A DNA stretch of 64,000 nt, taken from Candidatus Staskawiczbacteria bacterium. GTDB lineage: Bacteria > Patescibacteriota > Minisyncoccia > Minisyncoccales > Staskawiczbacteraceae. Location: the NCBI GenBank assembly GCA_023245155.1, contig JAHFKV010000001.1, positions 267,034-331,033 of the forward strand. Reading direction: 5' to 3'. The notes beneath the pieces are model-generated. The model saw nothing but the letters and a program-made list of their open reading frames with translations, made no database searches and was not told where the DNA came from. Positions 8,500 to 61,214 of the stretch are shown piece by piece. The translations under genes were made by a program, and so were the position numbers. Numbering within the stretch: position 1 is the first letter of the stretch; each line of letters starts with the position of its first letter.

Positions 8500-9774
8500 A
8501 TGGAAAGGAAATTGCTTTGTCTCTATGGTTCTCTGGCGCTGGTAGTAGTAGTTTTTTGTTTAGTGGGATTTGTTTTCCGTGCAAACTTATACAAAGTCTA
8601 TCAGGCTGCCAGCTTAGAAAACTCGCTATCAAAAGTGGCTCCTAAGGCGGCGGCAGTTTCTGTTCCAAAACTAAAGCCAGCACGAAAATCGGTTTCCTCG
8701 GCACCCTTACCCGCTCCAAACTTGGTACCTGCGACAATATCGCTGGCGCCATTGCCAACTCCCACCTCCGCTCAAGCTCCTTTAATAATGGCGCCAAGTA
8801 AGCCTTTATTATCGCCCGTGCCCAGTCCTAGTCCAACACCAACTCCCATTTCTCTCGAAAAAATTTTAATCCACCAAGTCCAAGCCGAAGGCCAAACGGT
8901 AAATGATGAGTTTATTACGTTGTACAATCCTAATGATTTGGCCGTGAACTTGGCAGGTTTTGTTCTAAAAAAGAAAACCGCCAGCGGAACCGAAAGCAAC
9001 CTGATTTCCGCTGAAGCATTTTCAGGAACCGTTGCCGCCCGGGGATACTTTTTAATAGCTCCACAAGATAACGATGATGCTACGAAAAATTATACCGGTT
9101 CGCTGGTACCTGATGCGCGATATTCGGGTAAAACGTTTTCCATTGCCTATGGTAATACGATTTTATTGTATGACGCTGAAAATGTATTGCAGGATCAATT
9201 TTTGATTCCAGAGCCCCTCTCAACTCCCACTCCACCGCCACCGCCACCAGCACCATCTCCTGAGCCAACTCCCGCGCCATCACCCTCGCCCCTACCTACA
9301 GAAACACTGCCCCCAGCACCACCTCCACCTCCGCCACCACCTTTGCCCCAGCCTTCAGTTGCGATAAATGAAATCGCCTGGATGGGCACCACCGTATCGG
9401 CAAACAACGAATGGCTGGAACTATTTAATCATGGTGATCAGACAGTAGACCTGGCGGGCTGGAAATTACAAGCAGCTGATGGCACGCCCAATATTACATT
9501 GTCTGGTAGTATTAGTCCCCACGGATTTTATCTATTAGAAAGAACTGATGATAACTCTGTTCCCACGGTTGTCGCTGATCAAATTTACACCGGGGCGCTG
9601 GGTAATAGCGGAGAAAATATTTCATTAACTAATGCTTCCGGCAGTGTGATTGATCAGGTAAATTGCGCTGCGGGTTGGTTCGCAGGCGATAATACTTCTA
9701 AAAAAACTATGCAACGGACCACAGATGGTGGTTGGCAAACTAGCGAAACGCCTGGCGGAACTCCAAAAGTATAA
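8500..9774 (+). CDS. membrane-anchored protein with two lamin-tail domains (LTD) and Pro-rich linkers
   Basis: N-terminal TM segment. Two LTD-like units (NDEFITLYNPNDLAVNLAGFVL... and NEWLELFNHGDQTVDLAGWKL...GNSGENISL). Poly-Pro tract. Confidence 0.8.
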   Translation: MERKLLCLYGSLALVVVVFCLVGFVFRANLYKVYQAASLENSLSKVAPKAAAVSVPKLKPARKSVSSAPLPAPNLVPATISLAPLPTPTSAQAPLIMAPSKPLLSPVPSPSPTPTPISLEKILIHQVQAEGQTVNDEFITLYNPNDLAVNLAGFVLKKKTASGTESNLISAEAFSGTVAARGYFLIAPQDNDDATKNYTGSLVPDARYSGKTFSIAYGNTILLYDAENVLQDQFLIPEPLSTPTPPPPPPAPSPEPTPAPSPSPLPTETLPPAPPPPPPPPLPQPSVAINEIAWMGTTVSANNEWLELFNHGDQTVDLAGWKLQAADGTPNITLSGSISPHGFYLLERTDDNSVPTVVADQIYTGALGNSGENISLTNASGSVIDQVNCAAGWFAGDNTSKKTMQRTTDGGWQTSETPGGTPKV

Positions 9775-9788
9775 TAAAGTATCTCCTG

Positions 9789-9826
9789 CCACCTTTTAAT
9801 AATCTTTGACTTTAGGTGGTTTTTTT
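9789..9826 (+). terminator. possible terminator
   Basis: CCACCT (9789-9794) pairs with AGGTGG (9814-9819) across a long loop, followed by T7. Confidence 0.35.
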
Positions 9827-9836
9827 GTTAGATTTA

Positions 9837-10352
9837 ATGGAAATTATGCAGGAAAATTTCGTAAAAATTATTAACGCTATTTACAAAGTTTTAGAATTTT
9901 TTCCAGAGGGAGACCCGTTGAAAAACAAGGCCAAAGAAAAAGCATTGGCGATTTTAGAAAATCCAGAATCTAAGGATATTGAAGTTTTAGAAAAATATTT
10001 GGAATTAGCAAAATGGCAAGGCTGGATAGATTCTATGAATTTTCTGATTATCATTAAAGAATTAGAAAAAATAAAAAATGGTATTATTGCCAAACCTGAA
10101 ATATCTGTCTTCGAATTACGTCATAAGGAGATTGCGCCCGCTAGCAGGGGGGAATTTTCTGTCCGCCAAAAAAGAATATTACAGTTCTTGGAAAAAACGG
10201 AAAAAGTACAGGTGCAAGATATCATCAAAGAAATGCCTAACGTGACCAAGAGAACAATACGCAGAGATTTGGATGATTTATTGAAAAAGGGGGAAATAAC
10301 TAGAATTGGCGATTTTAACCAAGTTTTTTACCAAAAATATGATAGGACATGA
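9837..10352 (+). CDS. transcriptional regulator with C-terminal DeoR-type winged HTH
   Basis: RQKRILQFLEKTEKVQVQDIIKEMPNVTKRTIRRDLDDLLKKGEI. I prefer ATG 9837 to the GTG at 9816. Confidence 0.7.
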   Translation: MEIMQENFVKIINAIYKVLEFFPEGDPLKNKAKEKALAILENPESKDIEVLEKYLELAKWQGWIDSMNFLIIIKELEKIKNGIIAKPEISVFELRHKEIAPASRGEFSVRQKRILQFLEKTEKVQVQDIIKEMPNVTKRTIRRDLDDLLKKGEITRIGDFNQVFYQKYDRT

Positions 10353-10402: not shown

Positions 10403-10912
10403 ATGAATAACCCAAGAGAACAATTTAGTCTTATCTACGACCAATATATTAATGCAATATATCGGTTTGTTTATTTGAAGGTAAGTTTGCAAGAAACAGC
10501 TGAAGATATTACCTCTAGGGTTTTTATTAAAGCTTGGCAATCCTATCAAAAAGACGCTCAATCAATCCAGAACATGAACGCTTTTTTGTATAGAATTGCC
10601 GGTAATTTAGTAATTGACCACTATAGGGAAAAAGACAAAAAAAGCACTATTTCCACAGAAAGTTTAGCCCAGCTGGCTGATGATAGGACAAGCATCCATG
10701 AAAGAGCCATGATAAACGCAGATATTGATAAGATGAAAGCGGCTTTAGTTGGGGTGAAAAAAGAATACCAAGACGTGATTATTTGGTATTACTTAGAAGA
10801 TATGTCTGCGGAAGAAATTACATTGCTAACTGGAAAACCGCCTGGAACCGTTCGGGTAATGATTCATCGTGGTCTAGAAATGCTCAGAGAGAAATTGATA
10901 GAGGAAGTCTAA
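10403..10912 (+). CDS. RNA polymerase sigma-70 family, ECF-type sigma factor
   Basis: Region 2 (YRFVYLKV...AEDITSRVFIKAW...LVIDHYR) and region 4 (YYLEDMSAEEITLLTGKPPGTVRVMIHRGL). Confidence 0.9.
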   Translation: MNNPREQFSLIYDQYINAIYRFVYLKVSLQETAEDITSRVFIKAWQSYQKDAQSIQNMNAFLYRIAGNLVIDHYREKDKKSTISTESLAQLADDRTSIHERAMINADIDKMKAALVGVKKEYQDVIIWYYLEDMSAEEITLLTGKPPGTVRVMIHRGLEMLREKLIEEV

Positions 10913-10957: not shown

Positions 10958-11653
10958 ATGGAAGAAGTGCAGCTTATCGCAAAGTTAAAAGAGTTAAAAA
11001 GCATCAGCCCCAGGAAAGAGTGGGTGCTTTTAACTAAGGCGCAATTATTTAAAGCTGAGGTTTTCCCTCAAGAAAAAGCCATCTTTACCAGCTTGTGGAG
11101 TAATATCGTCAATGTGGTTTCCAGGAAGCAGGTTGTGTATTCCTTGGCGGCATTAGCGGTGGTTATTGCCGGAACATATGGAATCATGAAATTTCCGTTA
11201 CCTTTTGCCATGGATGCAGCCAAAAGCTCAACTGCTTCTTTAGCTATTGAGACTAATCTAAAGAATAATGTTCAGACATTCATTACAAAATCACAAAATT
11301 TATCAGACGCTTCAAGGAATAAGTCGGGGGTTTTGGTAGCCCTAAAGGAGGTAAAGGAAGCTGCAAAAAGCGTTACAGAAACTATTAAAAAAGACCCGCA
11401 ATTGGCCAGCAAGGTAGCTTTAGAGATCAATAATAATAAAACCTATTTGGATGTTGCGGGCGGGAATACTTCCAATGAGGTTTCTGGCATGTATGAAGCT
11501 GTAGTAGTGCCACTGATTAAAGATTTGGTTGCTAGGACATTGAATTCAGACCAAGCAAAAGAGTTGAAGAGAATTAAGGATGACTTAGCCGCCAATGGCG
11601 ACTACGCTGTTGCATTGCGGGATATTTTAATTGGATTTGGGACTAACAAATAA
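10958..11653 (+). CDS. single-pass membrane protein, putative anti-sigma factor
   Basis: Located directly downstream of the ECF sigma factor. One TM segment (VVYSLAALAVVIAGTYGIM). No recognisable zinc motif. Confidence 0.5.
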   Translation: MEEVQLIAKLKELKSISPRKEWVLLTKAQLFKAEVFPQEKAIFTSLWSNIVNVVSRKQVVYSLAALAVVIAGTYGIMKFPLPFAMDAAKSSTASLAIETNLKNNVQTFITKSQNLSDASRNKSGVLVALKEVKEAAKSVTETIKKDPQLASKVALEINNNKTYLDVAGGNTSNEVSGMYEAVVVPLIKDLVARTLNSDQAKELKRIKDDLAANGDYAVALRDILIGFGTNK

Positions 11654-11671: not shown

Positions 11672-11859
11672 TCTGGCCAGCATGACTATGGCGGCCAGAT
11701 CAAGGATTTAACATTTGACGAGTCGTTATAGGAAGTTACATTATTCGCGGAGTGAGGTTTAACAAGATTAACTTCGTTGTTAATACGTAAAACCGCGAGG
11801 GTTAAAATGCGTTAAAGCTCGCTTTGCGAGCTCCCAACGAATATCTCTGGGATGTAACT
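11672..11859 (+). other. structured non-coding spacer (nested helices) upstream of the S-layer-like gene
   Basis: Helices at 11672-78/11693-99, 11734-41/11852-59, 11745-50/11793-98, 11759-65/11777-83 and 11816-22/11826-32. Confidence 0.35.
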
Positions 11860-11923
11860 GATTATTGGTCGATGCGACGAGAAATATAGTCCAAAAAAAT
11901 TAAAGACACAAAAAAATAATAAA

Positions 11924-14900
11924 ATGAATATAACAAAAACAATTATTACAGCCACAGTCGCATTGACTATGGTTGCCATGATTGCTCCTGTAATGACTTC
12001 TGCCGCCACCGTGCCTTCAGCATGTGCTGGCATCACTCTCACCAGAAATTTGAGAGTGGGATCGGTAGGATCTGATGTAAGATGCTTGCAAGCAAGTATG
12101 AACGCATTAGGTTATACAGTTGCAGTATCAGGAGCAGGCTCAATGGGCATGGAGACAACCCACTTTGGTCCAAAAACCTTAGTAGCTGTTAACCACTGGC
12201 AACAAGCTGTATTACATACATCAGCGACTCAGGTTGGTCCTATGTCAAGGGCAAACTTGAATGCATGGTTGACCGGCTCTCCGAGCCCAACCCCTTCACC
12301 GACTCCAAATCCTAATCCAACCGGACCGGTGAGCGTTATGCTTTCACCAGCAACTCCAGCAGCTGGAAACATTGTTGGAGGACAAGCTACTGCTGATTTG
12401 TTGCACGTAACCTTTACGGGAAGCGGCACGGTCACTTCAGTAGTTTTGACACGTTCTGGTATCTCAGATTCAAACACACTTACCAATGTGTATTTGTTTG
12501 ACGGAAATACCCGCATTACTGATGGATATAGCTTCAGTGCTACCACCAGCATGTTGACTATTAATGGCCTTAATATCGCCGTCAATGGATCACATGAAAT
12601 CTCCGCAAGGGCAGATGTTCTATCAACTGCTCCAACTACGGCTTCAACCATTGCCGTTTCACTTACTGGCTACACAGCCAATGGAACCACCAACACAGCT
12701 AGCGTTATGGGTAACACCATGTCAGTTGTAGTTGGAAACTTGGCTTCAGCTACGATTACCGCAGCTGCCAGCGCCGCTGTTCCAACAGCTAACGTGAATG
12801 CCGGTACTACTGGCTACACTTTCTGGTCAGCCCCTATTCAGATTAATACCAGGGCTGTCTGGCTGAAGATGGCAAACTTCCGCATGATCGGATCTGCACC
12901 TTCAGACGCGCTTTCCAACATCAAATTATTTATTGATGGTGTTGATACTGGAAAAGTTGGCATGGTTATGGCTATTAACGGTTCAAACTATGTAGTGTTT
13001 GATTTGACATCAGCGCCTATTAGCTTGATGACCGGATCACACGCCGTTGACATGAGGGCTGATATCCAGAAAGGTACCAATAGGACCATTCAGGTATCAA
13101 TCCAAAATGCATCTGACTTGACCATTTATGATCCTCAAGTTGGCGTAAATGTTGCTGTAAGCAGCACTACTGCCGGATCATTCAGCGCTAATAACGCCGG
13201 AACAATCTCTATTTTGACCGGTTCAGTGACGATTGTTACTGATCCTACCTTCACCGCTCAGACTACTGTTTCTGGAGGTGCAGCCAACGTAGTGGTTGCT
13301 AGATTCAAAGTTCATGCATATGGTGAAGATGTTAAAATCAGCACCTTGAAGATTATTCCTTCAATCCTTGGAGCAACTTCAACCGGATCTACTTGTACCA
13401 CTAACGCCACAACTGGAGTTATCGGTACTGCCGTGGGAACTTGCGGACTTAACAACGTAACTTTGTACTTCAATGGTTCACAAGTTGGTTCTCAGGTAAA
13501 TTACGTGGGAGCGACCTACACCATGGGTACTGTAACAACGGGTAGTGTTATTACCTATACGTTGGGTTCTCAGGTGATTGCTCCAGCCGGACAAGATAGC
13601 TGGTTGGAAGTAAGAACTGATCTTCAAACAGAAGCTAACGTTGCTTACACCGGAGGTACGGTAAAAGTAGGATTGCCTGCTGACACCGTTAATTACGGAC
13701 AAGGTATGAGCTCACAAGCTTCTATCACCGTTCCAACTGCGGCTATTGCTACCAGCGGTTTGACGATTTCAACCAATGGATTAGCCGTATCAAAGAACAG
13801 CGCTTACTTGAATCAATCAATTGCTCCAAACATGTCAGGTGTGAAAATCGGTTCTTACGTTTTACAGAACCAGAGCACCTCACAGTCAATCAGGTTGACT
13901 TCATTGAGCATTGCTACCACTATTACAACTACAACGGTAAGCAACTTCTCTAACTTGTGCGTTGCGGTAAATTCATCCAGCTGCAATACTTCTCCTATCC
14001 AGTTCTCAGGAACTCAAAGTGGCACTACATCAACTGATGTGTTCTCGGTAACCAATTCATTGGCGCAGGGAGCATCTATCTTGGTTGATTTGTATGCCCA
14101 GACAGGAGCAGCAACCAGCGGAACCATTGCGACAACCTTAAACGTTTCGTCAATCGGTGCTATGGATAACATTGCAGCCGCTAGCGGAGCCAAGACCGGA
14201 CAAACTATGACCTTAGGTACTGGAGCTGTTCCTACACCTACGTTAGTAGTGTCCGCTGCTTCAACTACTCCTGCTCAATTTGTTGCAGGTGCAATGCCAA
14301 CAGGAATGACCAATGCATCATCGCAAGCTACGTTTAACTTCCAGTCAACCAGTGGCGCTTCAACTATTACCGAACTTAAGTTTACGGTATCTGGTTCAGA
14401 CGCAAGCACCAGCAACATGGTAAGCAATATCTGTGTTGGCTCAATTTGCGCTCAGCCGGTTTCTGGTACAGCTTACTTAACTGGTCTTAACTTGAATGTT
14501 CCGCAAGGAAGTGGAGGTTTGACCCAGCCAGTTGCCATCTGGTATTCACCAGTTGGAACCAACGCTATCGTGCCTAACAACTTGGCCGCCGTTTCGCTTG
14601 CGTACTACAAGTACATTTCAGGCGGAACAACTACCACTAAGACTGGAACGACCCTTTCTGGAAGTGACTTCACTTCAGTAGCGGCTCCAACCCAGACTTT
14701 GGTTGGTTCACGGCCTGTCGTTGCAGTTACCAATGCTAGCGTTTCAGGACTTAACATTGGAACAGTTCAGAACAAGATTGGTGAAATCACGGTTATGGCT
14801 GACTCAAGAGGTGATCTTAAACTTAACGATATTAAGTTCACCGCGGTTAGCACCGGATTCGCAACCACCGTGCCTACCTTCACGAGCGCCTTTATCTCTG

Positions 14901-15301
14901 ATAACAGCAGCGCTACGGCAGTTACCGGTTCAAGTTGCGGTCAAGGTTCAGCTGCAGCAACTTCTCAGACCATCTTCTGCGAGTTTGCTACTTCAGGCGA
15001 TACTATGACTACGACTACTGGAGTTACCAACTCTGAAGACAACAACGACTTCGATGGTTACATTGTCCAAGCTGGAAAATCAGTTACTTTCAGCTTGTAC
15101 GCTATAGTTGCGGGAGCAACCACATCTACCAGCCCAGCCTCAATTTCAACCTCATTGGTTGCTGCAGGCTTTAACTGGGATGATGCTTCATATGCTGTAT
15201 TCAGCAGCAATGCAGTTACTGCAAATCCAAACAATGGAACGAACCTCACTGGTTCTAACATTTATGGATTCCCAACTAACAGCTACACCATCAAACAGTA
15301 A
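11924..15301 (+). CDS. giant cell-surface (S-layer-like) protein with N-terminal PG-binding domain
   Basis: 1125 aa. Signal/TM segment, PG_binding_1-like segment (GSVGSDVRCLQASMNALGY...FGPKTLVAVNHWQ), PSPTPSPTPNPNP linker, then about 1000 aa of T/S/A/G/N/V-rich repeated beta-type modules nearly devoid of charged residues. Confidence 0.8.
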   Translation: MNITKTIITATVALTMVAMIAPVMTSAATVPSACAGITLTRNLRVGSVGSDVRCLQASMNALGYTVAVSGAGSMGMETTHFGPKTLVAVNHWQQAVLHTSATQVGPMSRANLNAWLTGSPSPTPSPTPNPNPTGPVSVMLSPATPAAGNIVGGQATADLLHVTFTGSGTVTSVVLTRSGISDSNTLTNVYLFDGNTRITDGYSFSATTSMLTINGLNIAVNGSHEISARADVLSTAPTTASTIAVSLTGYTANGTTNTASVMGNTMSVVVGNLASATITAAASAAVPTANVNAGTTGYTFWSAPIQINTRAVWLKMANFRMIGSAPSDALSNIKLFIDGVDTGKVGMVMAINGSNYVVFDLTSAPISLMTGSHAVDMRADIQKGTNRTIQVSIQNASDLTIYDPQVGVNVAVSSTTAGSFSANNAGTISILTGSVTIVTDPTFTAQTTVSGGAANVVVARFKVHAYGEDVKISTLKIIPSILGATSTGSTCTTNATTGVIGTAVGTCGLNNVTLYFNGSQVGSQVNYVGATYTMGTVTTGSVITYTLGSQVIAPAGQDSWLEVRTDLQTEANVAYTGGTVKVGLPADTVNYGQGMSSQASITVPTAAIATSGLTISTNGLAVSKNSAYLNQSIAPNMSGVKIGSYVLQNQSTSQSIRLTSLSIATTITTTTVSNFSNLCVAVNSSSCNTSPIQFSGTQSGTTSTDVFSVTNSLAQGASILVDLYAQTGAATSGTIATTLNVSSIGAMDNIAAASGAKTGQTMTLGTGAVPTPTLVVSAASTTPAQFVAGAMPTGMTNASSQATFNFQSTSGASTITELKFTVSGSDASTSNMVSNICVGSICAQPVSGTAYLTGLNLNVPQGSGGLTQPVAIWYSPVGTNAIVPNNLAAVSLAYYKYISGGTTTTKTGTTLSGSDFTSVAAPTQTLVGSRPVVAVTNASVSGLNIGTVQNKIGEITVMADSRGDLKLNDIKFTAVSTGFATTVPTFTSAFISDNSSATAVTGSSCGQGSAAATSQTIFCEFATSGDTMTTTTGVTNSEDNNDFDGYIVQAGKSVTFSLYAIVAGATTSTSPASISTSLVAAGFNWDDASYAVFSSNAVTANPNNGTNLTGSNIYGFPTNSYTIKQ

Positions 15302-15317
15302 TTTCACGTTGACACGC

Positions 15318-15346
15318 AAAAAAGCCCCTTATGGGGCTTTTTTGTT
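15318..15346 (+). terminator. rho-independent terminator
   Basis: AAAAAGCCCC (15319-15328), loop TTAT, GGGGCTTTTT (15333-15342). Confidence 0.9.
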
Positions 15347-15363
15347 GTATAATGTATTATTAT

Positions 15364-16383
15364 ATGAATTATAAAAAATACGCGGTAAAAGTAGTCTTGG
15401 CAACATTACTATTGGGAGTAGGCGTTGGGCTGGGTTATCAGTGGGGCTTTAATCATGAGCATGATATTTTAGTAAAAAGCCTAAATGTTATCCACCCATT
15501 GAGAGATCATAACCCCTCATATAAGTTCGTCTCTCCACTCTTGGCCTATATTGTTCCAAGTGCCGATCAGGATGCTGGGCTGACGGCCTTGAAAAATAAG
15601 GTGGCTGATTTTATTGATGTCCAAAAAAAGAGCAATAACCTTTCAGATGCCTCCGTGTATTTGTCTGACCTGAACAGAGGCCGTTGGATTGGGGTGAATG
15701 AACGCCAAAAATATAATCCTGCCAGCATGTTAAAAGTGGTGGTGATGGTTTCTTATTTTAAGGAAGCGGAGATTCGTCCAGATATTTTACGAAAGAATTT
15801 GATGTACACAGCTAGTGCACAAGAGGCTATTAAAAAAGATTTTTTTAATTCTTCATCTCAGCTTGAGATTGGACAATGGTATACCATCCAAGATTTAATT
15901 GAAAAAATGATTGTTGACTCCGACAATGGAGCTGAGCTATTGCTTTTTGGCAATATTAATAAAGATAATTTAGACGCCATTTATAACGTCTTGAACATTA
16001 CTAGTCCCGACAAGATGGCTGATAATTTTGTTATTTCCCCGCGCGCCTATTCATTATTTTTCAGAGTGATTTATTCTGCCACTTATCTTAACGAAGACTT
16101 GTCGGAAAAAGCCCTGAGTATCCTTTCGAAAACAACGTTTGATGATGGGATTGTAGCCGGTTTGTCTACCAATTTGGTGGTTTCTCACAAATTTGGAGAG
16201 CATGTGGAAAGCAGTAATAACCAAGTTACGAGTGTAGAATTACACGATTGCGGGATTGTGTATTATCCGGTTAATCCCTATTTTTTGTGCGTTATGACCA
16301 AGGGCAAAGATATCGATCAATTAAAAAGCGTGATAAAGAATATTTCTTCCATGGTCTATCAAGCCTATGGAAGCCAGCAGTGA
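15364..16383 (+). CDS. serine hydrolase (class A beta-lactamase / DD-peptidase-like)
   Basis: SxxK (ASMLK), SDN (VDSDNG) and KTG-like (HKFG) motifs. ATG 15364 lies after the terminator. Confidence 0.8.
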   Translation: MNYKKYAVKVVLATLLLGVGVGLGYQWGFNHEHDILVKSLNVIHPLRDHNPSYKFVSPLLAYIVPSADQDAGLTALKNKVADFIDVQKKSNNLSDASVYLSDLNRGRWIGVNERQKYNPASMLKVVVMVSYFKEAEIRPDILRKNLMYTASAQEAIKKDFFNSSSQLEIGQWYTIQDLIEKMIVDSDNGAELLLFGNINKDNLDAIYNVLNITSPDKMADNFVISPRAYSLFFRVIYSATYLNEDLSEKALSILSKTTFDDGIVAGLSTNLVVSHKFGEHVESSNNQVTSVELHDCGIVYYPVNPYFLCVMTKGKDIDQLKSVIKNISSMVYQAYGSQQ

Positions 16384-16384
16384 G

Positions 16385-18613
16385 TTAGTTGGGCAGGGTT
16401 TTTAAAAACGCTTCCACATTGGATTTTGATTCGGGGGAGAGTTTTAAAACAATCAGTGCCTCTTGCCTGGCTTCATAATAATTGCCAGCTTGCCCATAGA
16501 AAAAAGCCAAGGAAGAGTGGTACTGGGCCACTTCTGGGCGTATGCCCGCAAGTTTTTGATAGATGGGCAACAATTCGCGGTAATCCATCAGGGAACCATA
16601 GGCATTAGCCAGCTGGAGTAAATTTACTTCAGAGGTAATATCGGTTCCTTTTTGGTGGGCGATGTCAATATTTATTTTAGCCCCGGGGATATCTTTTTCA
16701 TATATTTGCGTCAGTCCAAGGTAAAAATGGCAATCACCCAATTTAGGATTCGCGTTGATGCAAGTTTGAGCATAGCGGTGCGCTAGGGCAAATTCTTTGG
16801 CCGTCATGGCGATTTGTATGTATTGGGCAAGTATTTCTTGGTGACCCGGAGCTAAGGTGAGGGCTTGGTCTAAATATTGGTAAGCTTGTTTAATGAGTTC
16901 ATTTTTTTTTGAGGAGTTTTGTTCTTGATTTGCCAGTTCATTGGCGGCGTTTCCCATGAAAATCCAATAACGGGTATAGGTTGGCTGGATGACAACCGCT
17001 TGCTTGATTAATTCCAACCCACGCTGTTTGTAAAATAGAGTATTCTGCGGATAAAACTCAGCGCAGGTTTTTGCCATCTCAACGTATTGAAGCCTGGCAT
17101 ATGAATCTAAAAAGCTGTGCTGAACCAGGGCTTTTTCCAACACTGCGATCCCTTGGCCGCAGTTGCCTTGGTTGACTAAGGCTTGAGCAGTGTTAATCTC
17201 TGCATTCAGGGAAAGGGGGACAAGGTTGTATTGCCATATGAACACCGCTGCTAAACCAGCTAAGCCTATTGCCATGGCGGTTTTCCAAATCTTTTTCTTG
17301 GGTATGAGTGGCGGAGCTTCTTGGGTTGGTGTTAACAAAGCCAGGTGGAGCGAATAACCAGCTAGGAAAAAGAAGAGCAGGTAAGAAGAAAACGAATCAA
17401 AACTGAACAAGTTGGCAACCAGGTAGGCCAGTAACGTTGCCTTACTGCCATGGGCTGTTAAGGTTTTTACTTTGCTCAGTTGCCAGAATAGGGCAGCTAT
17501 GAGTCCCAGATACGCCAGCAGGCCAAGGATGCCCGCGTCGTTCATGGTTTGGATAAAAATGTTGTGGGCCCGATCCCACCAGGATAAAATTCCTTCCAGC
17601 GAGGGACTGGGCTGGTAGTAATGGTCAAAACCAACAGAAAAATTTTCCGGTCCATACCCCAAGAATGGCTTGGCTTTTACGGCTTTTAATTCAATCCCCA
17701 GAGTGGACAAGCGAGTATCCTCTAGCAGATTTTTGACCATGAATCGGGGGGTTAGGGTGGTAAAGAGCCGGTTTTGTTGCAGAAACCGGGGCAGCGGGGC
17801 AAGGTTAATATAAGCAATGCCGGCAATTGCTATGAGAAGCAATATCACCGCGGCTCTTTTGAAAATTCGTATTTTTTTGAATCCCGCCTGTTCGGTGATA
17901 GGGTACCAAATAAGAAAATAGGTGGCTCCCACCCCAATTCCCAGGTAAGCTGCTCGGGTACCGCTGAGTAATATAGCTAATAAGCATACTGCGCCACATA
18001 CCCCATAGAATATTTTTTTTGTTCGGCACGGTTCTTTCAGGAATCTTACTGCTATCATGAAAACTAATAATAAAAGATACACCGCTAAAAGAATGGCGTT
18101 TCCCATGGTTCCCGTGGGGCGACTTTGCGGCGCACCGAAGATGCCATAGTATTGAGAAATGGCCACCAGGGAGATCAAAGCTCCTATGAGAATAGAAAAA
18201 TCCCAAAGTTTTTCCCATTCTTGGCGCGTTAAGGTAAGATAGGCAACCATAGCCACGACGATATAACCAGCAAAGGTGACAAAGCCACCGCCCCGGTAAG
18301 GGCTTGACCATAAGCTGGTTTGGGGATCAACAGAAAAGAGCGTAGCTAGCCCATAGGCTCCTAATAGGATTGCCAAGAACCAGGCAGTGTAAGCTTTTTT
18401 TAAATGCAGGGAGTTAAACCTTGCCAAATTCTGCGGCCATTGGAAGGCAAGGCCGACGCATAAAATCGTTAGAATGATTCTAAAAATAACCGTTTTGCCA
18501 AAATCCGGCGGGAAAAACCAGGGTTGCCATAATAAGAGGGGCAGAGCCAATATTACAAAAAATCCGGCCAAATACAGCCAATGAGATTGATAAAAAAACG
18601 CGTTGTTTTTCAT
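16385..18613 (-). CDS. O-antigen ligase/Wzy_C-domain polytopic membrane protein fused to a C-terminal TPR domain
   Basis: 742 aa. About 10-12 TM segments with LSGTRAAYLG. The C-terminal ~300 aa has TPR-like repeats (AYQYLDQALTLAPGH..., YYEARQEALIVLKLSPES). Confidence 0.8.
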   Translation of the reverse strand: MKNNAFFYQSHWLYLAGFFVILALPLLLWQPWFFPPDFGKTVIFRIILTILCVGLAFQWPQNLARFNSLHLKKAYTAWFLAILLGAYGLATLFSVDPQTSLWSSPYRGGGFVTFAGYIVVAMVAYLTLTRQEWEKLWDFSILIGALISLVAISQYYGIFGAPQSRPTGTMGNAILLAVYLLLLVFMIAVRFLKEPCRTKKIFYGVCGAVCLLAILLSGTRAAYLGIGVGATYFLIWYPITEQAGFKKIRIFKRAAVILLLIAIAGIAYINLAPLPRFLQQNRLFTTLTPRFMVKNLLEDTRLSTLGIELKAVKAKPFLGYGPENFSVGFDHYYQPSPSLEGILSWWDRAHNIFIQTMNDAGILGLLAYLGLIAALFWQLSKVKTLTAHGSKATLLAYLVANLFSFDSFSSYLLFFFLAGYSLHLALLTPTQEAPPLIPKKKIWKTAMAIGLAGLAAVFIWQYNLVPLSLNAEINTAQALVNQGNCGQGIAVLEKALVQHSFLDSYARLQYVEMAKTCAEFYPQNTLFYKQRGLELIKQAVVIQPTYTRYWIFMGNAANELANQEQNSSKKNELIKQAYQYLDQALTLAPGHQEILAQYIQIAMTAKEFALAHRYAQTCINANPKLGDCHFYLGLTQIYEKDIPGAKINIDIAHQKGTDITSEVNLLQLANAYGSLMDYRELLPIYQKLAGIRPEVAQYHSSLAFFYGQAGNYYEARQEALIVLKLSPESKSNVEAFLKTLPN

Positions 18614-18665: not shown

Positions 18666-20108
18666 TTGAAGATAATACGCCTCCTTTTTACTAATATCGG
18701 CATCAAACAAACTCTCTTGAAAAACACCTTTTGGCTGGTTTTGGCGGAAGCGGTGATTAAAATTTTGAGTTTGGTACTGATCATTTATATGGTCAGGGTG
18801 TTGGGGGTGACTCAATATGGTAAGTTTACCTTTGCGTTTTCGTTCGTTTCCATTATGGCCATTTTTTCTGATTTGGGAGTGGTGGATTTTTCCACCCGGG
18901 GGTTAGCTCGTAATAAAAACAACGAAGAAAGGTTTTCGGGTATTTTTACCCTTGAAGCGCTCTTGTGTGTGTTCATGCTTGGAGTTTCCGTTGTGGGATC
19001 TTTTTTTATTACTCCCGATTCAGAAATTAGGAAAATCATTTGGATCCTAAGTATCTTTTTTATCAGCAATAGCTTGTTCGGGATTATTTTTTCTTTCTTG
19101 CGGGCGCGGCAAAATATGGAATACGAAGCCTTGATTCGGATTGCCCAGTCTTTGGCAAACACCTTGGTGGTTTTTTTCGTTATTCTTTACCTCCCCTCTA
19201 TCGGTAATGTTAGCTATGGTTACCTGATTTCAAATTTAATCATACTCTTCTTCTTGTTATTGTTGTTCCGGGCCCGTTTCCAGCCTATTCACTTGCACTT
19301 GGAGAAGCATTCCTTAGATGTTCTTAAAATGTCTTGGCCCATGAGCCTTGGGTTTGTGGCAAGCTGGACCTATCTTTCCATTAATTCAGTGATGCTGGGG
19401 TATTTTAATTTGATCACTGAAAACGGCTGGTATAATGCTGCTTCTCGGATTGCTCTGGTGGCCATTATCCCCGCCACTCTGATTTTGAAAACTTTTTATC
19501 CCATGCTGAGTAACTTCTATGTCTCATCAGCAGAAAAACTCCAGAAATCCTGGGATTATCTGGCACAATCAATGCTCTGGCTGGCTCTGCCCATGGTAAC
19601 GGGAATGATTGTGATAGCTCCAAAAATTATCTACGCGTTTTATGGTCCCGGTTTTTCTCCTTCTATCTTGGCTCTTCAGCTTCTCATCATCGTCATTGGC
19701 ATCAGTTTTATCACCATTCCTTACAGTGTCATTTTGGTGGTGGCCGACCAGCAGAAAAAAAACTTTAGTTTAATTGTGGTGGGCGCCGTAATGACCATTG
19801 GGTTGAATGTTATCTTAGTGCCTTGGTTCGGTTTTTACGGCAGTATTATTTCTGCCCTGATTGCTTCTAGCGCGGTATTTTTTGGCACCGTGGCAGTTGC
19901 CCATTATACCACCGCCATCCGCATTGTTAATAAAAATTTGCTTTTGGCAACGGTAATATCGGCCTTTTCCAGTGCTGTTATGTATGGGTTGATACATAAT
20001 CAGTTCATGGATCATGCTCCCTTGGTGATCATCTGCTTCACGGGAGCGCTGGTTTATTGTTTACTATCACTCGTTTTATATAGAATATCCTATGTCCGAA
20101 GCAAGTAA
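18666..20108 (+). CDS. Wzx-like oligosaccharide flippase (MOP superfamily)
   Basis: 480 aa, polytopic, with a typical N-terminus (LLKNTFWLVLAEAVIKILS). The start at 18666 is TTG. Confidence 0.8.
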   Translation: MKIIRLLFTNIGIKQTLLKNTFWLVLAEAVIKILSLVLIIYMVRVLGVTQYGKFTFAFSFVSIMAIFSDLGVVDFSTRGLARNKNNEERFSGIFTLEALLCVFMLGVSVVGSFFITPDSEIRKIIWILSIFFISNSLFGIIFSFLRARQNMEYEALIRIAQSLANTLVVFFVILYLPSIGNVSYGYLISNLIILFFLLLLFRARFQPIHLHLEKHSLDVLKMSWPMSLGFVASWTYLSINSVMLGYFNLITENGWYNAASRIALVAIIPATLILKTFYPMLSNFYVSSAEKLQKSWDYLAQSMLWLALPMVTGMIVIAPKIIYAFYGPGFSPSILALQLLIIVIGISFITIPYSVILVVADQQKKNFSLIVVGAVMTIGLNVILVPWFGFYGSIISALIASSAVFFGTVAVAHYTTAIRIVNKNLLLATVISAFSSAVMYGLIHNQFMDHAPLVIICFTGALVYCLLSLVLYRISYVRSK

Positions 20109-48383: not shown

Positions 48384-49523
48384 ATGACTAAGCGTACAAA
48401 ATCTATTCCACTTTCGGGAGCGGATATTGGTCAAAAAGAGATTGACGCTGTTTTGGAAGTTCTTCAAAGTAAGCGTTTGGCCCTAGGGCCGACGTTAACT
48501 GCGTTTGAAAACGCGGCGGCAAGCTTTGTTGGCGTAAAACACGCCGTGGGGGTAAACAGCGCTACCAGTGGCTTGCATCTTATTATCAGGGCCCTGAGAA
48601 TAACCAAGGGTGATGAAGTAATTACCACCCCATTTTCTTTTGTTGCTTCATCAAACTGTATCTTATACGAAGGTGCCACTCCCGTTTTCGTGGATATTGA
48701 ACCGCATACGTTTAACATTGATGTTTCAAAAATAGAAGCAAAAATTACTAAAAAAACCAAAGCCATTTTGGCAGTGGACGTATTCAGTCATCCCGCTGAT
48801 TGGGATGCTTTACAAAAAATTGCTAAAAAACACAATTTATTTTTAATTGAAGATGCTGCTGAATCGTTAGGTTCAACCTATAAAGGCAAGCCCTGCGGCA
48901 GTTTTGGTGACGCGGCGGTGTTCGCCTTTTATCCCAACAAGCAAATTACCACAGGCGAAGGCGGCATGATTCTGACCAACAACAAAAAAATCGCAGACCT
49001 TTGCCGTAGCTTGTCTAACCAGGGCAGGGAGATTAAACATGGAGCTTGGTTAGCGCACGTGAGATTGGGTTACAATTATCGGCTTGATGAAATGTCTTCG
49101 GCCGTGGGCTTGGTCCAATTAACAAGGATCAAAGAAATTTTGGCCAAGCGTAAAAAGGTGGCAGCCTGGTATAGTAAAAAGTTGCAACAGGTTAAAGGGT
49201 TGAGGATTCCGCAAACTGCGCCAAATGCCACAATGAGCTGGTTTGTGTATGTGGTGTTACTGGACCAGAAATTGGCAGGAGTTAAACGCGATATGATACT
49301 GCAGAAGATGGTAAAAAAGGGAATTGCCTGCAGTAATTATTTTCAACCCATTCATTTGCAGCCCTTCTATAAAAAAGAATTTGGTTTTACGGCCGGAGAC
49401 TTTCCGGTTGCCGAAAACATTGGTTCTCGCACTCTGGCTCTGCCATTTTTCAACAATCTTACCCAAAGAGAAGTTGATTACGTGGTAAAAAGTGTAACGG
49501 AAATACTCCATGAATTTGTTTAA
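48384..49523 (+). CDS. DegT/DnrJ/EryC1/StrS-family sugar aminotransferase (PglE-like)
   Basis: AVNSATSGLHL and AFYPNKQITTGEGG (PLP Lys present). Confidence 0.9.
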   Translation: MTKRTKSIPLSGADIGQKEIDAVLEVLQSKRLALGPTLTAFENAAASFVGVKHAVGVNSATSGLHLIIRALRITKGDEVITTPFSFVASSNCILYEGATPVFVDIEPHTFNIDVSKIEAKITKKTKAILAVDVFSHPADWDALQKIAKKHNLFLIEDAAESLGSTYKGKPCGSFGDAAVFAFYPNKQITTGEGGMILTNNKKIADLCRSLSNQGREIKHGAWLAHVRLGYNYRLDEMSSAVGLVQLTRIKEILAKRKKVAAWYSKKLQQVKGLRIPQTAPNATMSWFVYVVLLDQKLAGVKRDMILQKMVKKGIACSNYFQPIHLQPFYKKEFGFTAGDFPVAENIGSRTLALPFFNNLTQREVDYVVKSVTEILHEFV

Positions 49524-59785: not shown

Positions 59786-59813
59786 TTGGTTGTGGCAAAT
59801 AAAATGCTATAAT
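59786..59813 (+). promoter_or_regulatory. promoter TTGGTT-N16-TGcTATAAT
   Basis: -35 at 59786-59791; extended -10 at 59805-59813; ATG at 59826. Confidence 0.55.
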
Positions 59814-59825
59814 ATACTAATTATC

Positions 59826-60641
59826 ATGAAAAAAATTATTACAAAATTTAATATTGTGCTGGGAGTTATTTTACTGGCAGGGATTACGTTTTCCATTTTT
59901 ACCCTCGTGCATGCAACAGCGCCCAATCCCGGACACAATTTTACGGAGGTTTCTGGCGGTATTGCGCAGGGCGACCTTATTTACGGTTCGGCAGCGGATA
60001 CATTTTCTGCGTTGGCAAAAAATGCCACCGCTTCAAGATATTTATCAAATTCCGGAGCATCTAATAATCCGGCTTGGGCGCAGGTGAACCTTTCCAATGG
60101 TGTAACAGGAAACCTTCCAGTGGGGAACTTAAACAGTGGCACTAGCGCCTCTTCATCAACCTTCTGGCGCGGAGATGGCACATGGGCTGCTCCCGGCGGA
60201 GGTGGCGGTACGTATGTTGCGCTTGGATCTGATGTTGCCAGTACCGCTTCAACATCGTACCAAAACATTACCGGTCTTTCTTGGTCGCTGGCCGCCAGCA
60301 CTAATTATGATATTGAATGTAAAATAACTTTTGATGCTAGTGCCGCCACCATTGGCCTTGGTATTGGCTGGACGGGGCCAGCTTCGCCAACACTAACCAC
60401 CGGTCAAATGGTGGCAGGTATTGGAACTCAGACAGTAGGGGGTACTTTGATACAAGGAAACGACACTGGGTCTACTACCTCCGCTTCAGCTGGAACCACC
60501 AACAACCACGCTGATTTTGAAGGCATTTGGCGCAATGGGAGCAACGCTGGCACCCTCCAGATGCGCTTTAAGCCCGAAACCGCTACCGCCAATGGTATTA
60601 TCATCAAGACCGGTTCCTGGTGCAAATATTCAACGTATTGA
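59826..60641 (+). CDS. secreted protein with tail-fibre-like N-terminal motifs
   Basis: Signal peptide. [16 protein letters not shown]...NNPAWAQV...[17 protein letters not shown], then a beta-rich C-terminal domain. Confidence 0.6.
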
Positions 60642-61210: not shown

Positions 61211-61214
61211 ACGT

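What the first reader, a model, noticed from the sequence alone, without database searches (positions are those of the whole stretch)
11924..15301. 1125-aa charge-depleted, Thr/Ser-rich, PG-anchored surface protein: S-layer candidate and likely glycosylation target
After a signal/TM segment and a PG_binding_1-type domain, the protein has a PSPTPSPTPNPNP hinge. About 1000 residues of reiterated ~120-aa beta-type modules follow. Recurring patterns include LxNVxLFxxG...GSHxxxxRADx (e.g. LTNVYLFDGN...GSHEISARADV, LSNIKLFIDG...GSHAVDMRADI, LNNVTLYFNG...). These modules have very few K/R/D/E residues. It is preceded by an ECF sigma/anti-sigma pair, ends in the strongest terminator of the window, and is followed within 1.1 kb by the Wzy_C/TPR gene and the glycan locus.
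Basis: partly seen in the sequence, partly recalled or inferred. Interest (0 to 1): 0.55.

Follow-up and report, generated by a model that had tools for sequence, protein, structure and literature searches.

The report
Abundant wall-anchored surface protein, S-layer candidate
This gene encodes a large, probably very highly expressed surface protein found in one group of ultra-small uncultivated bacteria (Parcubacteria/Paceibacteria); it is tethered to the cell wall and built from six beta-sandwich modules, which makes it the best candidate so far for the unidentified protein of the surface layer seen on these cells by electron microscopy.

Summary
The ORF is real: 11924-15301 (+), 1125 aa. It has a signal peptide, a PG_binding_1 three-helix domain, a Pro/Ser/Thr hinge and about 990 aa of all-beta sequence. 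Charged residues (K, R, D, E) make up 7.1% against a window median of 21.5%. S+T is 27.5%.

The repeats exist, but there are six modules of 138-207 aa, not about 120 aa, and only profile comparison and the AlphaFold model (pLDDT 86) detect them.

The body has no Pfam or NCBIfam model and no close solved fold. It defines a family of at least 950 sequence clusters in Parcubacteria (Staskawicz-, Nomura-, Azambacteria and others). The 59 loci recovered come from 59 different genomes, and length is conserved.

New evidence from this work:
- Codon usage indicates very high expression in 60 of 60 loci and equals that of ribosomal proteins in one locus.
- A winged-helix regulator gene lies upstream in 51 of 56 loci.
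- Long conserved untranslated leaders precede the gene.
- A Wzy_C gene with a glycosyltransferase cluster lies downstream in two independent arrangements (19 of 50 loci).

The ECF sigma/anti-sigma pair is specific to one clade. The "strongest terminator" claim is not supported.

Verdict: an abundant, peptidoglycan-anchored envelope protein. An S-layer role is plausible and glycosylation is possible; neither is shown.

The parts
9816..10352 (+). 178-aa protein with a C-terminal DeoR-type winged helix-turn-helix; the family-wide upstream partner and putative dedicated regulator
   Evidence: The protein matches HTH_DeoR at E 1e-8 (aa 117-164). Iterative search places its homologue upstream of the big gene in 51 of 56 loci, directly adjacent in 37, and in otherwise different gene neighbourhoods.
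10403..10912 (+). ECF-type sigma factor (clade-specific neighbour)
   Evidence: The protein matches Sigma70_r2 and Sigma70_r4_2. It lies between the HTH gene and the big gene in only 15 of 56 loci.
10958..11653 (+). Single-pass membrane protein, putative anti-sigma factor
   Evidence: There is no Pfam or NCBIfam match. It co-occurs with the sigma gene in 14 loci. Its role is inferred from position only.
11715..11726 (+). Leader box 1, TTGACGAGTCGT (also a TTGACG-N16-TACATT promoter-like site)
   Evidence: The box is conserved in 11 of the 13 aligned upstream regions of the sigma-containing clade. One search reports the promoter-like site here.
11773..11799 (+). Leader box 2, TTCGTTGTTAATACGTAAAACCGCGAG; predicted hairpin and/or operator; overlaps a TTAATA-N17-TAAAAT promoter-like site
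   Evidence: The box is nearly invariant: 10 loci match exactly. It is unique in the window, with 0 matches in shuffles. RNAalifold predicts a hairpin with 3 compensatory pairs.
11867..11885 (+). Leader box 3, GGTCGATGCGACGAGAAAT, 57 nt before the ATG
   Evidence: The box is conserved in all 13 aligned upstream regions of the clade, 54-150 nt before the start codon. It is unique in the window.
11924..12004 (+). Signal peptide (aa 1-27)
   Evidence: The sequence is MNITK, then a hydrophobic stretch, then TSA/A. The N-terminus is conserved across homologues. pLDDT is below 50.
12005..12283 (+). PG_binding_1-type three-helix peptidoglycan-binding anchor (aa 28-120, with Cys34/Cys54)
12284..12325 (+). 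Pro/Ser/Thr hinge (aa 121-134)
   Evidence: The sequence shows the hinge directly. pLDDT is below 50 at aa 122-131. It is the least conserved segment (27% mean identity).
12326..12739 (+). Beta-sandwich module D1 (aa 135-272)
   Evidence: Defined from the AlphaFold model and hhalign. Mean identity in the family is 60%.
12740..13195 (+). Beta-sandwich module D2 (aa 273-424)
   Evidence: A separate model has pLDDT 88 and pTM 0.82. It finds only weak fold matches. Mean identity is 60%.
13196..13747 (+). Beta-sandwich module D3 (aa 425-608; Cys491/507)
13748..14233 (+). Beta-sandwich module D4 (aa 609-770; Cys679/687)
14234..14677 (+). Beta-sandwich module D5 (aa 771-918; Cys837/842)
14678..15298 (+). 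Beta-sandwich module D6 (aa 919-1125; Cys1005/1019); the C-terminus has no LPXTG motif and no transmembrane anchor
15318..15343 (+). Intrinsic terminator (A6-GCCCC-TTAT-GGGGC-T6), symmetric and so potentially bidirectional
   Evidence: See (-22.7 kcal/mol, z -5.6).
15331..16383 (+). Beta-lactamase2 / penicillin-binding-protein-like protein. The listed ATG lies in the terminator loop, so the true start is probably 15352 or 15364.
   Evidence: The protein matches Beta-lactamase2 at E 2e-30. It lies downstream of the big gene in 10 of 50 loci. The sequence around the start is shown.
16385..18613 (-). Wzy_C (O-antigen ligase/polymerase/O-oligosaccharyltransferase superfamily) membrane protein with C-terminal TPR repeats
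   Evidence: A Wzy_C gene lies downstream of the big gene in 19 of 50 loci, in two arrangements.
18666..20108 (+). Wzx-type flippase, the first gene of the glycan locus, which runs to about 51 kb
   Evidence: The protein matches Polysacc_synt at E 1e-27. Further glycan genes are listed.

Best explanation
The gene encodes the major envelope structural protein of a Staskawiczbacteria-like member of the Parcubacteria/Paceibacteria (candidate phyla radiation, CPR). The proposed mechanism has these steps.

1. The protein is exported by Sec and its signal peptide is removed (inferred).
2. The N-terminal PG_binding_1 domain attaches it non-covalently to the peptidoglycan (inferred from domain homology).
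3. A flexible Pro/Ser/Thr hinge carries a roughly 100-kDa arm of six disulfide-braced beta-sandwich modules outward.
4. The two anchor-proximal modules are the most constrained and the distal ones the most variable.
5. The arms most likely pack side by side into the regular outer layer (S-layer) that cryo-EM shows on CPR cells, which lack an outer membrane (inferred, not shown).
6. Its many Ser/Thr residues may be O-glycosylated by the neighbouring Wzy_C-type enzyme, using glycans from the adjacent locus (inferred from neighbourhood only).
7. Expression is very high and starts from a long conserved leader. It is probably controlled by the winged-helix protein that is linked to the gene throughout the family, with an ECF sigma/anti-sigma pair added in this clade (inferred).
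For: Architecture
- establish the domain order.
- The full-length model has pLDDT 86.4.
- It contains five conserved-looking Cys pairs.
- The mature protein is about 110.7 kDa with pI 5.5.

Abundance proxy
- In the window the gene uses GGG 0 times out of 106 Gly codons and CCC 0 out of 42 Pro codons, and prefers TTC, TAC, AAC and ATC.
- Its Nc of 45.7 is the second lowest of 48 genes.
- Across the family it has more C-ending two-fold codons than its neighbours in 60 of 60 loci (median +0.21, Wilcoxon p 1.6e-11).
- It has fewer disfavoured codons in 59 of 60 loci.
- In locus L004 its values (0.70 / 0.02) equal those of ribosomal proteins plus EF-P (0.69 / 0.06). Housekeeping genes score 0.56 / 0.13 and unknowns 0.43 / 0.14.

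Structural-protein behaviour rather than adhesin behaviour
- At least 950 clusters at the 50% identity level match, 382 of them at E below 1e-30. Nearly all are 1000-1300 aa and aligned end to end.
- The 59 loci recovered lie in 59 different genome assemblies.
- Invariant residues occur in all six modules.
- The protein is 62% identical to the nearest genome's copy, more than sigma (54%), HTH (51%), Wzy_C (47%) or anti-sigma (30%).
- D1 and D2 average 60% identity; D3-D6 average 43-49%.

Regulation
- HTH linkage holds in 51 of 56 loci.
- Leader boxes are conserved.
- In the other clades a TTGCnn-N16-18-TATAAT site lies 300-600 nt before the ATG.

Glycan link
- A Wzy_C gene lies downstream in 19 of 50 loci.
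- It is either convergent, as here, or co-directional and followed by a TPR gene and GT2/GT1/GT9 genes.
- PglF-like and DegT-like sugar genes lie in the locus.

Context from papers
- CPR cells show an S-layer with 10-nm and 3.8-nm periodicity and no outer membrane (bioRxiv 10.1101/2020.05.14.094862).
- Ca. Nealsonbacteria shows 'an apparent S-layer' and has PG-binding proteins (10.1101/2022.04.20.488981).
Against: - There is no direct evidence of self-assembly, surface exposure, abundance or glycosylation.
- No sequence or fold similarity to any known S-layer protein was found. Fold searches return only generic tandem Ig-like or beta-sandwich arrays.
- S-layer proteins usually evolve fast, whereas this family is well conserved.
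- PG_binding_1 is not, to my knowledge, an established S-layer anchor.
- Charge depletion and S/T richness are shared by other secreted proteins of this organism, so they say nothing specific.
- The Wzy_C gene may simply be the polymerase or ligase of a wall polysaccharide pathway.
- Sequons are not enriched.
- Eight loci carry a second, shorter paralogue downstream.
Confidence: 0.55

Rival explanations
1. The protein is an abundant wall-anchored fibril or adhesin that does not form a lattice. Individual six-module rods would project from the peptidoglycan as a 'fuzzy coat' and bind the host cell or particles, as in the episymbiotic lifestyle of CPR bacteria.
For: - Tandem beta-sandwich arrays on a wall anchor are the standard adhesin design.
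- The best whole-chain fold matches include the PrgB Ig-like domains and integrin legs. The module's best matches include cohesins and Gram-positive pilin domains.
- The distal modules vary most.
Against: - The module number and total length are fixed across at least 950 clusters.
- Residues are invariant in every module.
- Codon bias is at ribosomal-protein level in 60 of 60 loci.
- No lectin or other binding domain is present, and there is no LPXTG motif.
- Adhesins usually vary in repeat number and evolve faster than their neighbours. This protein is more conserved than most of its neighbours.
Confidence: 0.25
2. The protein is an envelope-stress or wall-maintenance protein. It would be made when the ECF sigma factor is released from its anti-sigma partner, and would act with the neighbouring penicillin-binding-protein-like enzyme as a scaffold or shield for peptidoglycan, not as a permanent coat.
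For: - The sigma/anti-sigma pair lies directly upstream and a Beta-lactamase2-like gene directly downstream in this clade.
- The protein has a PG_binding_1 domain.
- An AAC-N16-CGT string, which resembles an ECF promoter, occurs in the window's leader (sequence shown).
Against: - The sigma pair is present in only 15 of 56 loci and the beta-lactamase-like gene in 10 of 50.
- The AAC-N16-CGT string is not conserved in the closest relatives.
- The codon-usage signature indicates constitutively very high expression across all clades.
Confidence: 0.12
3. The protein is a secreted polysaccharide-binding or enzymatic protein, with carbohydrate-binding-module-like beta sandwiches, that works on the glycan made by the adjacent locus or on host polymers.
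For: - Weak fold matches to cohesin or jelly-roll modules and to a glycoside hydrolase accessory domain.
- A glycan locus lies next to the gene.
Against: - No catalytic or CBM family is detected by Pfam or NCBIfam.
- TM-scores are at most 0.42.
- The expression signature and the size fit a structural protein better.
Confidence: 0.05

Closest known systems
S-layer glycoproteins of Geobacillus stearothermophilus (SgsE, SbsB/SbsC) with the slg glycosylation cluster and its Wzy_C-type oligosaccharyltransferase WsaB (from my own knowledge of the literature, not tested here)
   Same: - Both are Sec-exported proteins of about 100 kDa.
- Both have an N-terminal wall-anchoring module followed by a chain of beta-sandwich (Ig-like) domains.
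- Both are weakly acidic and Ser/Thr-rich.
- In both, the structural gene lies next to a cluster containing a Wzy_C-family enzyme, a flippase or transporter, and glycosyltransferases.
   Different: - There is no sequence similarity.
- The anchor here is PG_binding_1, not SLH or a domain that binds secondary cell-wall polymer.
- Lattice formation and glycosylation are unproven here.
- This family is far more conserved than Bacillaceae S-layer proteins.
S-layer proteins built from tandem Ig-like domains in archaea and Deinococcus (Haloferax volcanii csg, Nitrosopumilus SLP, D. radiodurans HPI) (from my own knowledge)
   Same: All are strings of about six beta-sandwich domains. All are rich in Thr/Ser and are heavily glycosylated outermost layers.
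   Different: - Those are anchored by a lipid, a transmembrane segment or another protein, not by a peptidoglycan-binding domain.
- No detectable homology exists; none appeared in the top 50 fold matches.
Gram-positive wall-anchored adhesins and pilins with tandem Ig-like domains (PrgB 8BEG, BcpA 3KPT, EbpB 9M00)
   Same: They share a tandem beta-sandwich architecture on a wall-attached stalk. They appear among the fold matches.
   Different: - This protein has no LPXTG or sortase signal.
- No isopeptide-type or adhesin Pfam domains are detected.
- Identity is 7-14% and TM-scores are at most 0.24 for the pilin matches.
- The module number is fixed, the gene appears once in each of the 59 assemblies recovered, and the codon bias indicates high expression.
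PG_binding_1 (PF01471) wall-targeting domains of peptidoglycan hydrolases (Streptomyces albus Zn D-Ala-D-Ala carboxypeptidase 1LBU, phage endolysin gp144, SleB)
   Same: The anchor is a three-helix bundle. The family profile matches these domains at E 2e-7 to 1e-3.
   Different: In those proteins the domain targets an enzyme. Here it carries a 1000-aa non-enzymatic beta array.

Membership tests
S-layer protein (functional class) | Self-assembles into a two-dimensional paracrystalline lattice that forms the outermost envelope layer | not testable with these tools
   No multimer prediction and no experiment was available. The full-length model has pTM 0.48, so even the relative arrangement of the modules is uncertain.
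S-layer protein (functional class) | Among the most abundant proteins of the cell (tested here only through the codon-usage signature of very high expression) | tested here: met
   This is a proxy only. C-ending codons are enriched in 60 of 60 loci and disfavoured codons depleted in 59 of 60. The values equal those of ribosomal proteins in L004. Nc is the second lowest of 48 window genes.
S-layer protein (functional class) | Secreted, with a dedicated cell-wall anchoring module and no catalytic domain | tested here: met
   A signal peptide and PG_binding_1 are present, with no other family match.
Known S-layer sequence families (SLH, CWB2, SLAP, RsaA-type and others in Pfam/NCBIfam) | Significant match to a family model or to a solved S-layer structure | tested here: not met
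   Pfam and NCBIfam return nothing except PG_binding_1. A profile search of the PDB hits only PG_binding_1 domains. The top 50 fold matches contain no S-layer protein.
PG_binding_1 (PF01471) | Profile match above the curated cut-off; three-helix bundle | tested here: inconclusive
   The window protein scores 15.4 bits, below the cut-off of 23. Homologues score 25-38 bits. The family profile matches 1LBU at E 2e-7. Three helices are modelled at pLDDT of about 90. The feature is therefore met for the family and sub-threshold for this sequence alone.
LPXTG/sortase-anchored adhesins (MSCRAMM type) | C-terminal LPXTG motif followed by a hydrophobic segment and a charged tail | tested here: not met
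   The C-terminus is ...NIYGFPTNSYTIKQ. It is part of the last beta domain and is conserved in the family.
Described bacterial Ig-like/FN3/DUF11/CARDB repeat families | Pfam match of the repeat modules | tested here: not met
   No match at E of 0.1 or less in the window protein, or at 0.01 or less in 8 homologues. Resemblance is at fold level only.
S-layer/protein O-glycosylation system with a Wzy_C-type oligosaccharyltransferase | Target protein gene linked to a Wzy_C-family enzyme and a glycan assembly cluster | tested here: met
   The Wzy_C gene lies 1.1 kb downstream here. It lies downstream in 19 of 50 loci in two arrangements, with GT2/GT1/GT9 genes following in L034.
S-layer/protein O-glycosylation system with a Wzy_C-type oligosaccharyltransferase | Glycan covalently attached to Ser/Thr/Tyr of the protein; the enzyme acts on protein rather than on lipid A core or a growing polymer | not testable with these tools
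   Sequence cannot separate ligase, polymerase and protein oligosaccharyltransferase. The PDB search matched only the TPR part.
ECF sigma / anti-sigma pair | Sigma70 regions 2 and 4 only; a co-transcribed membrane anti-sigma with a recognisable anti-sigma domain | tested here: inconclusive
   The sigma factor is met. The downstream 231-aa membrane protein has no family match and is linked only by co-occurrence in 14 loci.

The most novel reading that the evidence does not exclude
This family is the so far unidentified S-layer protein of Parcubacteria/Paceibacteria. It would be a new, Pfam-less class of S-layer protein whose six beta-sandwich modules are tethered directly to peptidoglycan through a PG_binding_1 domain and O-glycosylated by a linked Wzy_C/TPR enzyme. 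It would be expressed from a long conserved leader under a dedicated winged-helix regulator. If so, it gives the first molecular handle on the cell envelope of a major part of the candidate phyla radiation.
Probability: 0.4. Interest if true: 0.75.

Novelty: new variant of a known kind. Interest (0 to 1): 0.58.

Why it matters
CPR/Patescibacteria make up a large share of bacterial diversity, and their envelope is poorly understood. Papers found here describe a periodic surface layer on these cells but name no protein.

A conserved, apparently very highly expressed, wall-anchored protein family would turn 'what is the CPR surface layer made of?' into a testable question. Possible routes are:
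- peptide searches in existing metaproteomes;
- fitting the model into subtomogram averages;
- recombinant assembly assays.

Such a protein could also serve as an antigen or marker for labelling and sorting these uncultivated cells, and as a likely phage receptor and host-contact surface. The conserved leader and the linked regulator also offer a rare defined promoter/regulator pair in these organisms.

Tried and rejected
1. Self-BLAST for repeats found nothing even at E 100. The repeats appear only in profile comparisons.
2. Pfam, NCBIfam and a PDB sequence search for the 1000-aa body found nothing.
3. Fold searches of the whole chain (PDB, viral) and of module D2 (PDB) returned only generic tandem Ig-like or jelly-roll matches. 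For the module, TM was at most 0.42 and the best E 8.5e-4. No specific family could be assigned.
4. I looked for an ECF-type promoter in the leader. An AAC-N16-CGT string exists in the window but is not conserved in the closest relatives, so it was rejected as evidence.
5. I tested the leader as a known RNA family. Rfam found nothing in the window leader at E up to 10 other than a chance miRNA match, and nothing in 8 related loci.
6. I considered the TTATCCACA box in other clades as an origin of replication. It was rejected because there is a single box in one orientation directly next to a promoter-like site.
7. The 'strongest terminator' claim is not supported by my scan. The consensus scanner missed this terminator altogether.
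8. Literature searches for a named CPR S-layer protein or proteomic evidence found none.
9. N-glycosylation sequons are not enriched.
It was replaced by 8 members.

Full report
**1. The observation**

The window holds an uninterrupted ORF at 11924-15301 (+) of 1125 aa.
- T 15.4%, S 12.1%, A 11.6%, G 9.4%, V 9.4%.
- K+R+D+E is only 7.1%, against a median of 21.5% for the 51 window ORFs of at least 200 aa.

It is not the only such protein. Three further secreted ORFs at 59.8-63.3 kb have 6-9% charged residues and 24-33% S+T. This composition is therefore a trait of the organism's extracellular proteins, not a mark of one function.

The mature chain is about 110.7 kDa with pI 5.5. It carries ten cysteines arranged as five close pairs (34/54, 491/507, 679/687, 837/842, 1005/1019). 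That pattern fits an extracellular protein with a disulfide in the anchor domain and in four of the six modules (D3-D6).

**2. Anatomy**

Pfam finds only a sub-threshold PG_binding_1 match (15.4 bits against a cut-off of 23; aa 49-95). NCBIfam finds nothing.

A profile of 90 full-length homologues (alignment A1) matches the PG_binding_1 domains of solved wall hydrolases (1LBU E 2e-7, 4XXT, 5TV7, 3BKH). Five of eight homologues pass Pfam's cut-off.

The AlphaFold2 model built on A1 is confident (mean pLDDT 86.4):
- aa 1-27 (signal peptide) and aa 122-131 (the PSPTPSPTPNPNP hinge) are disordered.
- aa 50-116 form three helices.
- aa 135-1125 are all beta.
- pTM is 0.48, so the relative placement of the modules is not defined.

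The C-terminus (…YGFPTNSYTIKQ) is a conserved beta strand. It has no LPXTG motif and no membrane anchor.

**3. The repeats**

Self-BLAST gives no internal match at all. Profile-profile self-comparison does, with offsets of about 150 and 335 residues (E 1e-9 to 2e-7).

Cutting the body at the model's domain boundaries gives six modules: aa 135-272, 273-424, 425-608, 609-770, 771-918 and 919-1125. They are linked pairwise at P 8e-7 (2 v 3), 1e-5 (4 v 6) and about 1e-4 (1 v 2, 1 v 5, 3 v 4).

So the repeat is real, ancient and strongly diverged. Its period is about 165 aa, not about 120.

**4. Fold**

- The whole chain matches only generic tandem Ig-like arrays at 7-10% identity: hydin, PrgB Ig-like domains, complement MG domains and integrin legs.
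- In the viral library it matches DUF11, FN3 and Ig proteins.
- Module D2 modelled alone (pLDDT 88, pTM 0.82) finds nothing closer than the receptor-binding domain of diphtheria toxin, cohesins and Gram-positive pilin domains (best E 8.5e-4, TM at most 0.42).

The module is therefore a beta sandwich or jelly roll without a close solved relative.

**5. The family**

A word-indexed search found 469 homologues. The top 120 are 888-1337 aa, mostly aligned over 97-100% of the query at 42-66% identity. Named ones are 'hypothetical protein' or carry evidently spurious names.

An exhaustive phmmer search with the body alone (aa 135-1125) found 950 cluster representatives at E of 1e-3 or less and 382 at 1e-30 or less. 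In most full-length hits the match begins at residue 130-260, that is, after an N-terminal anchor.

A scan of one genome per GTDB species found 59 loci in 59 different assemblies. They are labelled Staskawicz-, Nomura-, Azam-, Doudna- and Uhrbacteria, Paceibacterota/Paceibacteria, and generic labels. The scan used only two peptide patterns, so this is a lower bound on distribution and only a rough indication of one copy per genome. Eight loci carry a second, shorter paralogue downstream. No second copy of the body exists in the 64-kb window.

A few members (L019, L020, L024, L027, L032) have a different N-terminal region in front of the same body.

Conservation falls along the chain:

| Segment | Mean identity |
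|---|---|
| D1, D2 | 60% |
| D3-D6 | 43-49% |
| Hinge | 27% |

Against the nearest genome (L006), identities are as follows:

| Protein | Identity |
|---|---|
| ClpB | 86% |
| This protein | 62% |
| Sigma | 54% |
| HTH | 51% |
| Wzy_C | 47% |
| Anti-sigma | 30% |

**6. Expression signature (new evidence)**

The gene's synonymous codon usage differs sharply from the rest of the window:

| Codon | This gene | Rest of window |
|---|---|---|
| GGG | 0 of 106 | 21% |
| CCC | 0 of 42 | 36% |
| CTG | 2% | 20% |
| ATA | 3% | 15% |
| TTC | 65% | 22% |
| TAC | 59% | 34% |
| AAC | 58% | 37% |

Its Nc of 45.7 is the second lowest of 48 genes.

The same shift is seen in every related locus. C-ending F/Y/N/I/H/D codons are more frequent than in neighbouring genes in 60 of 60 loci (median +0.21, p 1.6e-11). 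Disfavoured codons are rarer in 59 of 60 (median -0.13).

In L004, which happens to carry ribosomal protein genes, the values are:

| Gene set | C-ending | Disfavoured |
|---|---|---|
| Big gene | 0.70 | 0.02 |
| S6, S18, L10, L7/L12, EF-P | 0.69 | 0.06 |
| SSB, RecA, FtsK, PurH | 0.56 | 0.13 |
| Unknowns | 0.43 | 0.14 |

This is the classical signature of translational selection on very highly expressed genes. It is a proxy, not a measurement, and the ribosomal calibration rests on a single locus. It is nonetheless the strongest single argument that the product is a bulk structural protein.

**7. Neighbourhood**

The order in the window is ClpB, an LTD protein, the HTH gene, the ECF sigma gene, a membrane protein, the big gene, a Beta-lactamase2-like gene, and a convergent Wzy_C/TPR gene. 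This order recurs in about 15 Staskawiczbacteria-like loci.

Across the whole family the constant partner is the winged-helix gene (window 9816-10352; HTH_DeoR E 1e-8). It lies upstream in 51 of 56 loci and is directly adjacent in 37, in otherwise unrelated contexts such as FtsK upstream in the Nomurabacteria-like loci. The sigma/anti-sigma pair therefore looks like an insertion into an older HTH-plus-big-gene unit.

A Wzy_C gene lies downstream in 19 of 50 loci, in two arrangements:
- convergent, as in the window;
- co-directional, 55-270 bp after the stop codon. In the one such locus examined in detail (L034), an unassigned ORF and then GT2, GT1, GT2 and GT9 genes follow. In L042 the ORF after Wzy_C is a separate TPR protein, followed by a convergent sugar dehydratase/epimerase gene.

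The window's glycan locus runs to about 51 kb and includes PglF/CapD-like and DegT-like genes. This recurrent linkage supports a functional tie between the protein and a surface glycan. It cannot say whether the protein is glycosylated or merely shares the envelope with a polysaccharide.

**8. Leader**

The 270-nt region before the ATG has three boxes that are nearly invariant in the sigma-containing clade and unique in the window:
- TTGACGAGTCGT at 11715.
- TTCGTTGTTAATACGTAAAAC(CGCGAG) at 11773.
- GGTCGAYGCGAYGAGAAAT at 11867.

Box 2 is predicted to form a hairpin with three compensatory pairs. It overlaps a TTAATA-N17-TAAAAT site, and box 1 overlaps a TTGACG-N16-TACATT site. No Rfam family matches.

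In the 35 loci where the HTH gene is adjacent, the gap is 390-860 bp. It carries, in order:
- a single (G)TTATCCACA box next to a TTGCnn-N16-18-TATAAT/TATACT site;
- a GATCATTGAAAAC box 150-200 nt later;
- another 180-560 nt before the ATG.

In both clades the gene thus has a long, conserved untranslated leader. Long stabilising leaders are known for several S-layer genes (my own knowledge). Here their function is unknown.

**9. Terminator**

A6-GCCCC-TTAT-GGGGC-T6 at 15318-15343 folds at -22.7 kcal/mol (z -5.6). It is a textbook terminator. A hairpin-only scan ranks other sites in the window higher. The ATG at 15331 listed for the next ORF lies in the terminator loop, so that gene more likely starts at 15352 or 15364.

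**10. Interpretation**

Shown:
- a secreted, charge-poor protein of about 110 kDa with a PG_binding_1-type domain, a hinge and six beta-sandwich modules;
- a large Parcubacteria-specific family with fixed architecture;
- a codon signature of very high expression;
- conserved linkage to a winged-helix gene and, often, to a Wzy_C/glycosyltransferase cluster.

Inferred:
- attachment to peptidoglycan through the N-terminus;
- outward projection of the modules, with the most variable ones outermost;
- lateral packing into the periodic layer that cryo-EM shows on CPR cells, which lack an outer membrane;
- O-glycosylation.

I put the S-layer reading at about 0.55. The broader statement, 'abundant peptidoglycan-anchored envelope structural protein', I put at about 0.8. 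The main rival is an abundant adhesin or fibril coat that forms no lattice (0.25). An ECF-controlled wall-stress protein (0.12) and a glycan-binding or enzymatic protein (0.05) fit the family-wide data less well.

**11. Comparison and novelty**

In how it would work, the closest analogues are S-layer glycoproteins made of an anchor plus a chain of Ig-like domains: the Geobacillus SgsE/SbsB/SbsC proteins with the adjacent slg cluster, archaeal csg-type proteins, and Deinococcus HPI.

Membership in any known S-layer sequence family was tested and not met. The PG_binding_1 anchor is unusual for such proteins.

I found no paper that names a CPR S-layer protein. The library is incomplete, so prior description cannot be excluded. 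I rate the finding a new variant of a known kind and of moderate-to-good interest. It does not overturn anything, but it makes an open question about a major bacterial radiation directly testable.

Noticed in passing
window 59790-63321 (+): There are three more secreted, charge-poor (6-9% KRDE), S/T-rich ORFs without any Pfam match: 59790-60641, about 61212-62171, and 62272-63321. The last two share a C-terminal half of about 150 aa ending ...TEAG(N/S)Y(A/T)TTLNYVATGNF. They follow a CAP-domain protein (58586-59461) and may form another surface-protein family or pilus-like set.
   Followed up: partly
loci L015-L060, gap between the HTH gene and the big gene (e.g. L033:6303-6896, L036:6235-6956): A single (G)TTATCCACA box, identical to the E. 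coli DnaA-box consensus, is present exactly in 22 of 35 loci, always in one orientation. It starts 15-19 nt before a TTGCnn-N16-18-TATAAT promoter-like site. A second conserved box, GATCATTGAAAAC, lies 150-200 nt downstream (28 of 35 loci), inside a leader of about 300-600 nt. No Rfam family matches. Whether the box binds DnaA, the linked winged-helix protein or nothing is unknown.
   Followed up: partly
window 11715-11885 (+): Three conserved non-coding boxes lie in the 270-nt leader of the big gene. They are specific to the clade that has the sigma/anti-sigma insertion. Box 2 may form a hairpin with three covarying pairs, or it may be an imperfect inverted-repeat operator (TTCGT-N7-ACGTAA).
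   Followed up: partly
window 8500-9774 (+) and L001:962-5635, L002:2524-4602, L003:2974-5553: A secreted lamin-tail-domain (LTD) protein with long Pro-rich linkers is conserved just upstream of the HTH/sigma cassette in the Staskawiczbacteria-like clade. Its size varies greatly between genomes (424 to 1557 aa), and some copies carry added beta-helix or HHH/Ig-like domains.
   Followed up: no
window 51371-53032 (+): A 553-aa protein carries a strong C-terminal PG_binding_1 domain (45.8 bits) that also matches the anchor part of the big protein's family profile (E 3e-16). The rest of the protein has no Pfam match. It sits between the glycan locus and MurB.
   Followed up: partly
window 48384-51363 (+): A DegT-type aminotransferase and a PglF/CapD-like 4,6-dehydratase (CoA_binding_3 plus Polysacc_synt_2) lie at the far end of the roughly 33-kb glycan locus. 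These are the enzyme types that make bacillosamine-like sugars, which are often used in protein glycosylation pathways.
   Followed up: no
window 15331-15366 (+): The mechanically listed ATG of the Beta-lactamase2-like ORF lies inside the loop of the upstream terminator. In-frame ATGs at 15352 and 15364 are more plausible starts, and a TATAAT hexamer lies at 15347-15352.
   Followed up: partly
L019, L020, L024, L027, L032 (N-termini of the big-gene homologues): A few family members replace the PG_binding_1 region with a different N-terminal segment (e.g. ...GEVYKGTDGTVYFITSDMQKRP...) in front of the same six-module body. This suggests that the anchor can be exchanged.
   Followed up: no
L020, L031, L033, L036, L043, L047, L053, L054 (1-4 kb downstream of the big gene): A second, shorter ORF with similarity to the big protein's modules lies downstream in eight loci. 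It may be a minor or partner envelope protein in those lineages.
   Followed up: no
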